From positions 2,117-66,116 of the forward strand of contig CAYLKG010000002.1 of the NCBI GenBank assembly GCA_964384195.1: DNA of 64,000 bases, given 5' to 3'. Under the pieces are notes generated by a model. It was not told where the DNA came from, made no database searches, and worked only from the letters and a program-made list of their open reading frames with translations. Position numbers and translations under genes: made by a program. Shown in pieces: positions 26,983 to 27,123 of this stretch. Positions within the stretch are counted from its first letter, which is position 1. Each line of letters begins with the position of its first letter. This DNA comes from an uncultured Aliarcobacter sp. Its GTDB lineage: Bacteria; Campylobacterota; Campylobacteria; Campylobacterales; Arcobacteraceae.

Positions 26983-27123
26983 TTGAAATATTTTTTGAAA
27001 TATTTTTTTGTATATCTACTGCTAATTATTGGTTTTGCTTTTATTTTAATGGAAAAAAATATAAGTGACTTAAATGGAAAAGATACAGATTCTGAAGTAG
27101 AATTTGTTTATGAGGAGTTTTAA
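26983..27123 (+). CDS. dltX: DltX-like acyl-shuttle peptide (46 aa, absent from ORF track)
   Basis: TTG behind AAGGAAG; MKYFLKYFFVYLLLIIGFAFILMEKNISDLNGKDTDSEVEFVYEEF; stop overlaps dltB start (TAATG); C-terminal FxYxxF. Confidence 0.85.
   Translation: MKYFLKYFFVYLLLIIGFAFILMEKNISDLNGKDTDSEVEFVYEEF

What the first reader, a model, noticed from the sequence alone, without database searches (positions are those of the whole stretch)
26983..27123. Hidden 46-aa DltX acyl-shuttle peptide ending in FVYEEF
Seen: the dltD-dltB gap is filled exactly by a TTG-start ORF behind AAGGAAG, with one TM helix, an acidic linker and terminal F-V-Y-E-E-F-stop overlapping the dltB ATG. Established: Firmicute DltX ends in an FxYxxF motif whose Tyr carries D-Ala from DltB to DltD. 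Its presence suggests the Gram-negative system is mechanistically complete and under selection. It falls below the ORF track's size cut-off and would commonly go unannotated.
Basis: partly seen in the sequence, partly recalled or inferred. Interest (0 to 1): 0.7.

Follow-up and report, generated by a model that had tools for sequence, protein, structure and literature searches.

The report
DltX-like shuttle peptide in Arcobacter
A real, conserved and transcribed 46-residue membrane peptide sits between dltD and dltB in this Aliarcobacter genome and is almost certainly the Gram-negative counterpart of DltX, the small protein whose C-terminal tyrosine passes D-alanine from DltB to DltD, although standard family models miss it.

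Summary
A TTG-start ORF at 26983-27123 sits 5 nt behind AAGGAAG. It encodes MKYFLKYFFVYLLLIIGFAFILMEKNISDLNGKDTDSEVEFVYEEF, and its stop overlaps the dltB ATG.

It is a gene, not chance. An equivalent ORF ending in F-[VI]-Y-x-x-F lies directly upstream of dltB in all 53 related loci that include that stretch (13 Arcobacteraceae, 40 mostly Bacteroidota). All share the order dltC-dltD-X-dltB-dltA. In-frame dN/dS is 0.18, against 1.3-1.5 in the other frames. Metatranscriptome contigs span dltD-X-dltB.

Pfam DltX (PF12459) does not detect it. Profile-profile comparison with Firmicute DltX aligns both the membrane helix and the motif (81 %, E 1e-5; 0 of 450 column shuffles reach the score).

DltB lacks a motif of its own. 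DltD keeps the GSSEL serine and the D-x-x-H motif.

The most likely function is a DltX-type acyl shuttle. It is a divergent new member of a known kind. The acyl-shuttle mechanism is already published for Firmicutes. Acylation, the cargo and the acceptor are untested here. Related genomes name the peptide only "hypothetical protein", and for this exact variant it was never called full-length. Interest is moderate.

The parts
25630..25860 (+). dltC-like carrier protein (76 aa) with the DSMGTV phosphopantetheine-attachment serine motif
   Evidence: Pfam PP-binding 1.2e-5. NCBIfam DltC model NF003464 at 1.9e-7, below its cut-off. First gene of the conserved C-D-X-B-A order.
25857..26972 (+). dltD (371 aa): N-terminal membrane anchor plus SGNH-like domain, with the GSSEL serine and D-M-A-H-L-G motifs
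   Evidence: Pfam DltD PF04914 4.9e-46, above its cut-off. Aligns to the solved DltD 6O93 with FGSSEL and D..HLG..GW conserved.
26971..26977 (+). Shine-Dalgarno-like AAGGAAG, 5 nt before the TTG start
   Evidence: Read directly. Purine-rich AAGGA/GAGGA stretches lie 3-11 nt upstream of the aligned start in most Arcobacteraceae loci.
26983..27123 (+). dltX-like microprotein gene, 46 codons plus stop, TTG start
   Evidence: Translation. Orthologues in 53 loci. dN/dS 0.18 in frame. hhalign to Firmicute DltX 81 %, E 1.2e-5. Covered by metatranscriptome contigs.
27001..27051 (+). Codons 7-23, the hydrophobic core of the single transmembrane helix, including the invariant Tyr11
   Evidence: Mean Kyte-Doolittle 2.64. 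AlphaFold model gives a helix over residues 2-30, with mean pLDDT 88 and 93 for residues 1-10 and 11-20. Tyr11 is invariant in alignment A3.
27052..27102 (+). Codons 24-40, the acidic flexible tether, with the near-invariant Ser37
   Evidence: The whole tail, residues 24-46, has net charge -6. Low-confidence coil from residue 31 onward. About 12 residues longer than in Firmicute DltX.
27103..27120 (+). C-terminal hexapeptide F-V-Y-E-E-F. The putative acyl-accepting Tyr43 codon is 27109-27111.
   Evidence: F41, Y43 and F46 are invariant in 28 diverse relatives. Matches the published FXYXXF acyl-shuttle motif (PMC12148441).
27123..28262 (+). dltB (379 aa), an MBOAT. Its ATG overlaps the dltX stop by 1 nt (TAATG). 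It has no C-terminal FxYxxF of its own.
   Evidence: TIGR04091 4.1e-65, below its cut-off. Pfam MBOAT. Aligns to the solved DltB 6BUG at 1.7e-37 with the FWRRFH histidine conserved. The protein ends ...FFSGRVPL.
28259..29695 (+). dltA (478 aa), the carrier-protein ligase. It overlaps the dltB stop by 4 nt.
   Evidence: NCBIfam DltA NF003417 2.5e-127, 425 bits against a cut-off of 476. Pfam AMP-binding 5.8e-53.

Best explanation
The ORF at 26983-27123 encodes a translated, single-pass inner-membrane microprotein. It is the functional, and probably evolutionary, counterpart of Firmicute DltX.

Proposed mechanism:
1. DltA activates a small amino acid, presumably D-alanine, and loads it on the phosphopantetheine arm of the DltC-like carrier in the cytoplasm.
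2. The MBOAT protein DltB passes the acyl group through the membrane onto Tyr43 of the peptide's periplasmic F-V-Y-E-E-F end.
3. The flexible acidic tether (about 16-20 residues) swings the acyl-tyrosine to the GSSEL serine of membrane-anchored DltD.
4. DltD transfers it to a periplasm-facing envelope acceptor that is not yet known.

Shown here: the ORF, its conservation, purifying selection, operon position, transcription, predicted membrane-helix-plus-tail architecture, motif invariance, weak but significant profile similarity to DltX, absence of the motif from DltB, and presence of the conserved catalytic motifs in DltB and DltD.

Inferred: translation, N-in/C-out topology, tyrosine acylation, the identity of the cargo, and the acceptor.
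For: ORF anatomy:
- Read directly from the sequence.
- Chance probability of an ORF of this size is 0.017. With the motif it was 0 in 200,000 simulations.

Operon identity:
- DltC-like, DltD, DltB and DltA assignments.

Conservation:
- Nine 46-aa Arcobacteraceae orthologues with invariant VEFVYE.F.
- A small ORF ending F[VI]YxxF directly upstream of dltB in all 53 loci that include that stretch, out of 56 from Arcobacteraceae and Bacteroidota. All have the order C-D-X-B-A.
- Y11, F41, Y43 and F46 are invariant.
- 119 protein clusters of this family among 5.8 billion, all unnamed.

Selection:
- Median dN/dS 0.18 in frame, against 1.5 and 1.3 in the other frames.
- Variable columns by codon position: 22, 13 and 37 of 45.

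Similarity to DltX:
- hhalign against five annotated Firmicute DltX proteins gives probability 81 %, E 1.2e-5. It aligns the helix (the ..Y-LLI.G...Y region) and the motif.
- None of 450 column-shuffled controls reaches that score. Both the helix and the motif contribute.

Architecture:
- N-terminus +2, tail -6.
- AlphaFold helix over residues 2-30, then a flexible tail.

Transcription:
- Metatranscriptome contigs identical to the window run from dltD through X into dltB.
- Depth is 46-100, against 5,000-15,000 for neighbouring argG and 0 in the promoter gap. This pattern argues for RNA rather than DNA carry-over.

Published mechanism:
- PMC12148441, PMC13653941, PMC11035591.
Against: - Pfam DltX PF12459 scores Firmicute DltX at about 1e-15 but gives no hit, even at E<=10, for the window peptide, 27 relatives or the Klebsiella plasmid peptide.
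- HMMER profile searches of 1.84 billion and 5.8 billion proteins found no Firmicute DltX.
- The hhalign probability of 81 % is below the usual 90-95 % comfort zone, and short hydrophobic proteins are hard to judge.
- There is no proteomic or ribosome-profiling evidence of translation.
- DltA, DltB and DltC score below NCBIfam's equivalog cut-offs, so D-alanine as cargo is not established.
- Arcobacter is Gram-negative and is not expected to make teichoic acids (background knowledge, not tested here). No acceptor-synthesis gene is linked.
Confidence: 0.8

Rival explanations
1. The peptide is a conserved structural or assembly subunit. Its membrane helix glues DltB to DltD or stabilises them, but its tyrosine does not carry the acyl group.
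For: - The helix region, including the invariant Tyr11, is as conserved as the tail.
- It contributes strongly to the profile similarity with DltX.
- Published models show DltX-DltD helix contacts (PMC13653941).
Against: - The only residues invariant across phyla, apart from Tyr11, are F41, Y43 and F46, placed exactly at the C-terminus. This is the same hexapeptide shown to be acylated in Firmicutes and in PatA (PMC12148441).
- DltB here lacks any shuttle motif of its own, so another carrier would be needed.
Confidence: 0.1
2. The system and its shuttle peptide work as proposed, but the cargo is not D-alanine.
For: - DltA scores 425 bits, below the 476-bit cut-off of the DltA subfamily model.
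- DltC is closer to generic acyl-carrier models than to DltC.
- DltB is far below its equivalog cut-off: 220 bits against 375.
- The clade is only 35-40 % identical to Firmicute DltB.
Against: - The best NCBIfam hits for the ligase are the two DltA models, at 1e-123 to 1e-127.
- By background knowledge, not checked here (PMC5066359 is not held), Gram-negative dlt loci such as Bordetella dra have been linked to D-Ala.
Confidence: 0.12
3. The ORF is only a translational-coupling leader (uORF) that delivers ribosomes to dltB. The peptide itself would be irrelevant.
For: - The TAATG stop/start overlap with dltB is present in the window and in all 13 complete Arcobacteraceae loci.
Against: - There is amino-acid-level purifying selection: dN/dS 0.18.
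- Residues are invariant across phyla although the DNA has diverged.
- In Bacteroidota the ORF ends 2-6 nt before dltB in the two loci checked (L015, L030), without overlap, yet the peptide is kept.
Confidence: 0.03
4. The ORF is a chance open frame in an AT-rich intergenic spacer.
For: - The gap is 23 % G+C.
- It uses a TTG start.
- Gene callers skipped it for this variant.
Against: - Simulations: 1.7 % for an ORF of this size and 0 in 200,000 with the motif.
- Conservation in 53 loci.
- Codon-position pattern of variation.
Confidence: 0.01

Closest known systems
DltX of Firmicutes (Pfam PF12459), the membrane microprotein of the dltXABCD operon. Its C-terminal FXYXXF tyrosine carries D-Ala from DltB to DltD (PMC12148441; Schultz et al. 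2023, cited there).
   Same: - Size: 46 aa here, 43-49 aa there.
- N-terminal basic residues and one membrane helix with a shared ..Y-hydrophobic-L..G...Y pattern.
- A free C-terminal F-[VI]-Y-x-x-F directly before the stop.
- Encoded inside a dlt operon.
- The partner DltB lacks the motif.
- hhalign gives 81 %, E 1.2e-5.
   Different: - Not detected by the Pfam model.
- The gene lies between dltD and dltB in a C-D-X-B-A operon, not first in X-A-B-C-D.
- The tether between helix and motif is about 12 residues longer and strongly acidic.
- A clade-specific conserved Ser four residues before the motif.
- The host is Gram-negative, so the acceptor is presumably not teichoic acid.
C-terminal acyl-shuttle motif of the MBOAT proteins PatA, AlgI and similar (peptidoglycan and alginate O-acetylation)
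   Same: The same FXYXXF hexapeptide, with a tyrosine that is acylated and hands the acyl group to an SGNH partner, in Gram-negative bacteria (PMC12148441).
   Different: - In those systems the motif is fused to the MBOAT on two extra membrane helices, and the donor is acetyl-CoA.
- Here DltB is short (379 aa), ends without the motif, and a carrier protein plus ligase are encoded alongside it.
Gram-negative dlt-like loci (Dickeya and Pectobacterium dlt; Bordetella dra)
   Same: A DltA, DltB, DltC, DltD gene set in a Gram-negative host. Dickeya and Pectobacterium dlt are reported to confer resistance to antimicrobial peptides (PMC5541007 citing Pandin 2016). Bordetella dra is cited from memory only.
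   Different: - I could not examine those loci here.
- No paper in the held library mentions a DltX in them.
- An enterobacterial plasmid cassette seen here has the same D-X-B-A layout, with a 40-aa peptide ending HFEYQKF.

Membership tests
DltX (acyl-shuttle microprotein of dlt operons) | Small protein (about 40-55 aa) with a single membrane helix | tested here: met
   46 aa. Hydrophobic core at residues 7-23, mean Kyte-Doolittle 2.64. AlphaFold helix over residues 2-30.
DltX (acyl-shuttle microprotein of dlt operons) | FXYXXF hexapeptide with an invariant Tyr at the extreme C-terminus | tested here: met
   FVYEEF followed by the stop. F41, Y43 and F46 are invariant in 28 relatives from two phyla. 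The motif definition comes from PMC12148441.
DltX (acyl-shuttle microprotein of dlt operons) | Encoded in one operon with dltA, dltB, dltC and dltD | tested here: met
   Lies between dltD and dltB, with overlapping or adjacent reading frames. The order is conserved in about 50 loci. RNA contigs span the junctions.
DltX (acyl-shuttle microprotein of dlt operons) | Match to the Pfam family model PF12459 at its gathering score | tested here: not met
   No hit at E<=10 for the window peptide or 27 relatives. The model scores Listeria, Lactobacillus and Niallia DltX at about 1e-15 to 1e-16. The NCBIfam copy has no model that detects even Listeria DltX, so it is uninformative.
DltX (acyl-shuttle microprotein of dlt operons) | Detectable sequence homology to bona fide DltX beyond the hexapeptide | tested here: met
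   hhalign gives probability 81 %, E 1.2e-5, score 26.9 over the helix and the motif. With the motif kept and the rest shuffled, the mean is 14.3 and the maximum 20.0. With all columns shuffled, the mean is 9.2. None of 450 shuffles reaches the real score. The signal is weak but significant.
DltX (acyl-shuttle microprotein of dlt operons) | N-in / C-out topology, with the motif on the extracytoplasmic side | tested here: inconclusive
   The charge distribution (+2 N-terminus, -6 tail) fits the positive-inside rule. This is a prediction only.
DltX (acyl-shuttle microprotein of dlt operons) | The partner DltB lacks its own C-terminal shuttle motif and the two extra helices | tested here: met
   DltB is 379 aa and ends FFSGRVPL. 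Residues 12-335 align to solved Streptococcus thermophilus DltB, with no C-terminal extension beyond it.
DltX (acyl-shuttle microprotein of dlt operons) | The Tyr is acylated by DltB and the acyl group is passed to the DltD Ser; the protein is required for D-alanylation | not testable with these tools
   This needs biochemistry or genetics.
Dlt D-alanylation system | DltA ligase, DltC carrier, DltB MBOAT with the conserved His, and DltD with the catalytic Ser/Asp/His | tested here: met
   DltA 2.5e-127. DltB 4.1e-65 with FWRRFH. DltD Pfam 4.9e-46 with GSSEL and D-x-x-H. A carrier with the DSMGTV motif. DltA, DltB and DltC all fall below NCBIfam equivalog cut-offs, so this is a divergent clade.
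Dlt D-alanylation system | The cargo is D-alanine and the acceptor is teichoic acid | not testable with these tools
   Arcobacter is Gram-negative and is not expected to have teichoic acids (background knowledge). The flanking genes give no clue to the acceptor.

The most novel reading that the evidence does not exclude
The C-D-X-B-A cassette would be a distinct, horizontally spreading Gram-negative envelope-aminoacylation module. It is found in Arcobacteraceae and Bacteroidota. An IS-flanked D-X-B-A-ACP version sits on Enterobacterales plasmids. Its long acidic DltX tether and fast-evolving DltD would be adapted to a non-teichoic periplasmic acceptor, such as LPS or lipid A, a phospholipid, or a periplasmic glycan. 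Identifying that acceptor would define a new surface-charge modification, and possibly a cationic-peptide resistance pathway, in Gram-negative bacteria.
Probability: 0.35. Interest if true: 0.65.

Novelty: new member of a known kind. Interest (0 to 1): 0.45.

Why it matters
The DltX acyl-shuttle mechanism has been described as a feature of Gram-positive bacteria (PMC13653941). The Pfam DltX model matched only Firmicute sequences among those tested here.

This finding shows that a divergent dlt clade in Gram-negative Arcobacteraceae (which include emerging food- and water-borne pathogens) and in Bacteroidota carries its own DltX. The shuttle step therefore appears universal for DltB-type MBOATs.

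It gives annotators a simple rule: look for a small ORF ending in FxYxxF next to dltB. It adds at least 119 unnamed protein clusters to the family.

It also makes the open question of what Gram-negative dlt systems modify more tractable. Complete five-gene reconstitution or deletion sets can now be designed; a four-gene set would probably fail.

Tried and rejected
- Pfam and NCBIfam scans of the peptide gave no hit. NCBIfam turned out to have no model that detects even Listeria DltX, so that negative means nothing.
- A profile search of PDB sequences with the peptide family found nothing.
- An Arcobacter-only profile against 1.84 billion representatives found 18 hits, all in the same clade and none a Firmicute DltX.
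- A broader profile (Arcobacter plus Bacteroidota) against 5.8 billion proteins found 119 hits. None carried a Pfam domain and none had a name beyond 'hypothetical protein', apart from one evident mislabel as LptF.
- The DltB homologue search listed only Arcobacter proteins among its top 120, so it did not reach distant systems.
- Schultz et al. 2023 (PMC10664464) and Pandin et al. 2016 (PMC5066359) are not held. I therefore could not check whether they already mention Gram-negative DltX.
- The first hhalign shuffle script timed out. It was rerun successfully.
- Flanking genes in the window and in two Bacteroidota loci were scanned for acceptor-synthesis genes. Only unrelated housekeeping genes were found.
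- The promoter and terminator scans were no better than shuffles.

Full report
**1. The observation**

The window carries a compact + strand gene row:
- a 76-aa carrier protein (25630-25860);
- a 371-aa protein (25857-26972);
- a 150-nt gap;
- a 379-aa protein (27123-28262);
- a 478-aa protein (28259-29695).

Family scans identify these as follows:
- a phosphopantetheine carrier (PP-binding 1.2e-5; DltC model 1.9e-7);
- DltD (PF04914, 4.9e-46);
- DltB (TIGR04091, 4.1e-65; MBOAT);
- DltA (NF003417, 2.5e-127).

Only DltD passes a curated cut-off, so this is a divergent dlt clade.

- AAGGAAG at 26971-26977;
- TTG at 26983;
- 46 codons reading MKYFLKYFFVYLLLIIGFAFILMEKNISDLNGKDTDSEVEFVYEEF;
- TAA at 27121-27123, whose last base is the A of the dltB ATG.

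The mechanical ORF list begins the frame at an earlier TTG (26953), inside dltD. Orthologues have ATG (10 loci) or TTG (window and 3 loci) at the codon aligned with 26983.

Physical features of the peptide:
- Residues 7-23 have a mean Kyte-Doolittle hydropathy of 2.64.
- The N-terminus carries +2 and the 23-residue tail carries -6.
- An AlphaFold model built on the Arcobacter alignment gives a helix over residues 2-30, with mean pLDDT 88 and 93 for residues 1-10 and 11-20. The tail from residue 31 is flexible and low-confidence.

In 200,000 first-order Markov simulations of the gap, a complete ORF of at least 40 codons arose in 1.7 %. None ended in F.Y..F.

**2. It is a gene**

A word-indexed search found nine 46-aa orthologues in Aliarcobacter and Arcobacter. 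All end in VEFVYE[EA]F, and NCBI or JGI calls nearly all of them 'hypothetical protein'.

A genome scan with the window DltB returned 56 loci:
- 16 Arcobacteraceae-type loci (L001-L014 and L056, including a few MAGs with implausible taxonomic labels, plus L010);
- 40 loci at 35-46 % DltB identity, mostly from Bacteroidota (Crocinitomicaceae, Fluviicola, other Flavobacteriales), one labelled Glaciecola and one labelled Kuenenia.

In 53 of the 56 loci, a small + strand ORF ending in F-[VI]-Y-x-x-F-stop lies directly upstream of dltB. The three exceptions are cut off before that point. The gene order dltC-dltD-X-dltB-dltA is the same throughout.

Across 28 diverse members, the invariant residues are Tyr11 (in the helix), Phe41, Tyr43 and Phe46. 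Ser37 is nearly invariant.

Among 14 Arcobacteraceae sequences:
- the ORF has no indels;
- median dN/dS is 0.18 in frame, against 1.5 and 1.3 in the two other frames;
- variable columns by codon position are 22, 13 and 37 of 45.

Wastewater metatranscriptome contigs identical to the window run uninterrupted from dltD through the ORF into dltB (26103-27482 in one run, 25917-27587 in another). Depth over the operon is about 46-100. Depth is 5,000-15,000 over the neighbouring argG and 0 over the upstream promoter gap. That pattern is what RNA gives, not contaminating DNA. Translation itself has not been shown.

**3. What it is**

DltB transfers D-Ala from DltC to an invariant Tyr in the C-terminal FXYXXF 'acyl shuttle' motif of the microprotein DltX. 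DltX then passes it to the catalytic Ser of DltD (PMC12148441; confirmed for L. plantarum in PMC13653941; motif FLYFGF in S. thermophilus, PMC11035591). Other MBOAT-SGNH systems carry the same motif fused to the MBOAT.

The window's DltB is short and ends ...FFSGRVPL, without the motif. It keeps the FWRRFH histidine aligned with solved DltB. DltD keeps FGSSEL and D-x-x-H-L-G aligned with solved DltD 6O93. The system therefore needs a separate shuttle, and the ORF supplies it.

For a direct comparison I took annotated DltX proteins from Firmicute records in the plasmid collection: Listeria, B. cereus, L. crispatus, L. curvatus and Niallia. All end in [FY]IYN[ED]F.

Pfam PF12459 scores the three of these that were tested at about 1e-15 to 1e-16. 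It gives nothing for the window peptide, 27 relatives or an enterobacterial plasmid peptide. HMMER profile searches of 1.84 and 5.8 billion proteins likewise stay within the Gram-negative clade.

Profile-profile comparison does link the two groups: probability 81 %, E 1.2e-5, score 26.9. It aligns the helix (window FFVYLLLIIGFAFIL with Listeria TFFYLAILLGLLWFY) and the motif. The Gram-negative clade has a 12-residue insertion in the tether.

Column-shuffled controls never reach that score, 0 of 150 in each case:
- all columns shuffled: mean 9.2;
- motif kept, rest shuffled: mean 14.3;
- helix kept, last eight columns shuffled: mean 19.3.

Both parts therefore contribute to the score. I conclude that this is a divergent DltX, homologous or at least architecturally equivalent, that lies outside the current family model.

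**4. How it most likely works**

See Best explanation. The steps from DltA loading to DltD transfer are taken by analogy with the Firmicute pathway. What is specific here:
- the gene's position between its two membrane partners;
- tight coupling: 10 nt after the dltD stop, and a TAATG overlap with dltB that is conserved in all 13 complete Arcobacteraceae loci;
- the longer, strongly acidic tether.

The cargo (D-Ala or another small amino acid) and the acceptor are unknown. Flanking genes are unrelated housekeeping genes, both in the window (hexapeptide transferase, argG, ArsP permease and others) and in two Bacteroidota loci.

**5. Novelty and annotation status**

Within the held literature, nine papers mention both DltX and MBOAT. 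No paper retrieved by the three searches that included the term DltX describes a DltX in a Gram-negative dlt system. [quoted passage not shown] The key paper by Schultz et al. 2023 could not be read, so prior mention cannot be excluded.

Gene callers do find the ORF in several RefSeq Aliarcobacter genomes, for example WP_169729042.1, but leave it unnamed. For the exact window variant with its TTG start, no full-length call exists among 15 billion proteins. Only a 24-aa fragment starting at the internal ATG is present. The identical DltB was called on 23 contigs.

**Verdict**

The finding is real and correctly interpreted. It is a new, divergent member of a known kind. Its value lies in annotation and in studying Gram-negative envelope aminoacylation, and it does not overturn anything.

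Noticed in passing
L058:3014-7066 (Klebsiella electrica plasmid NZ_CP041250.1); identical in Enterobacter cloacae NZ_CP071862.1; partial in K. pneumoniae NZ_CP063883.1: An IS-flanked cassette of dltD, a 40-aa 'hypothetical protein' (MMKTAIRLFLLYLLLAITIVAWTSVDDSMSLQLHFEYQKF, ending in FxYxxF), an MBOAT, an AMP-binding ligase and an acyl carrier protein sits on Enterobacterales plasmids, two of them typed as conjugative. It is a mobile dlt-like module with its own DltX-like peptide, and its phenotype is unknown.
   Followed up: partly
window 25857-26972 versus L001-L014: Among Arcobacteraceae, DltD is far more divergent (48-54 % identity to the window) than DltB (75-90 %), DltA (72-80 %) or the carrier (76-91 %). 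This may reflect different acceptors or surface exposure.
   Followed up: no
L021, L005, L048: Some record labels look wrong for the DNA they hold. A complete 'Glaciecola amylolytica' chromosome (CP034120.1) carries a Fluviicola-like dlt locus and peptide. A 'Paceibacteria' MAG carries an Arcobacter-type locus at 75 % identity. A 'Kuenenia stuttgartiensis' MAG carries a Bacteroidota-type locus. Mis-binning or mislabelling is likely.
   Followed up: no
P0132, P0010, P0140: Three database variants break the 46-aa pattern. A 60-aa form reads on past the motif (FVYEVFIASVTLF...). A 69-aa form and an 86-aa form have unrelated N-termini joined to the conserved tail. All come from metagenome sources, so they may be assembly or gene-calling artefacts or decayed copies.
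   Followed up: no
window 22879-24858, - strand: An EAL-domain ORF of 176 aa matches only profile positions 73-235. It sits next to a 131-aa ORF with no Pfam hit, which overlaps a 325-aa PTS_EIIC-like membrane ORF. This may be a fragmented or frameshifted signalling gene.
   Followed up: no
window 25855-25887, + strand: A terminator-like hairpin (13 pairs, then a T-rich run) lies exactly at the dltC/dltD junction, inside the operon. The count of such sites in the region is no higher than in shuffles.
   Followed up: no
NCBIfam library: Bona fide Listeria DltX gets no NCBIfam hit even at E<=10. This copy of the library therefore has no HMM that detects DltX, and negative NCBIfam results for such peptides carry no weight.
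   Followed up: yes
window 29731-30966 (- strand, argG) versus 25630-29695: In three wastewater metatranscriptomes (X25, X26, X33), argG contig depth is roughly 50-300 times that of the dlt operon, and in a fourth (X31) roughly 10-100 times. The operon is therefore expressed at a low level in situ.
   Followed up: no
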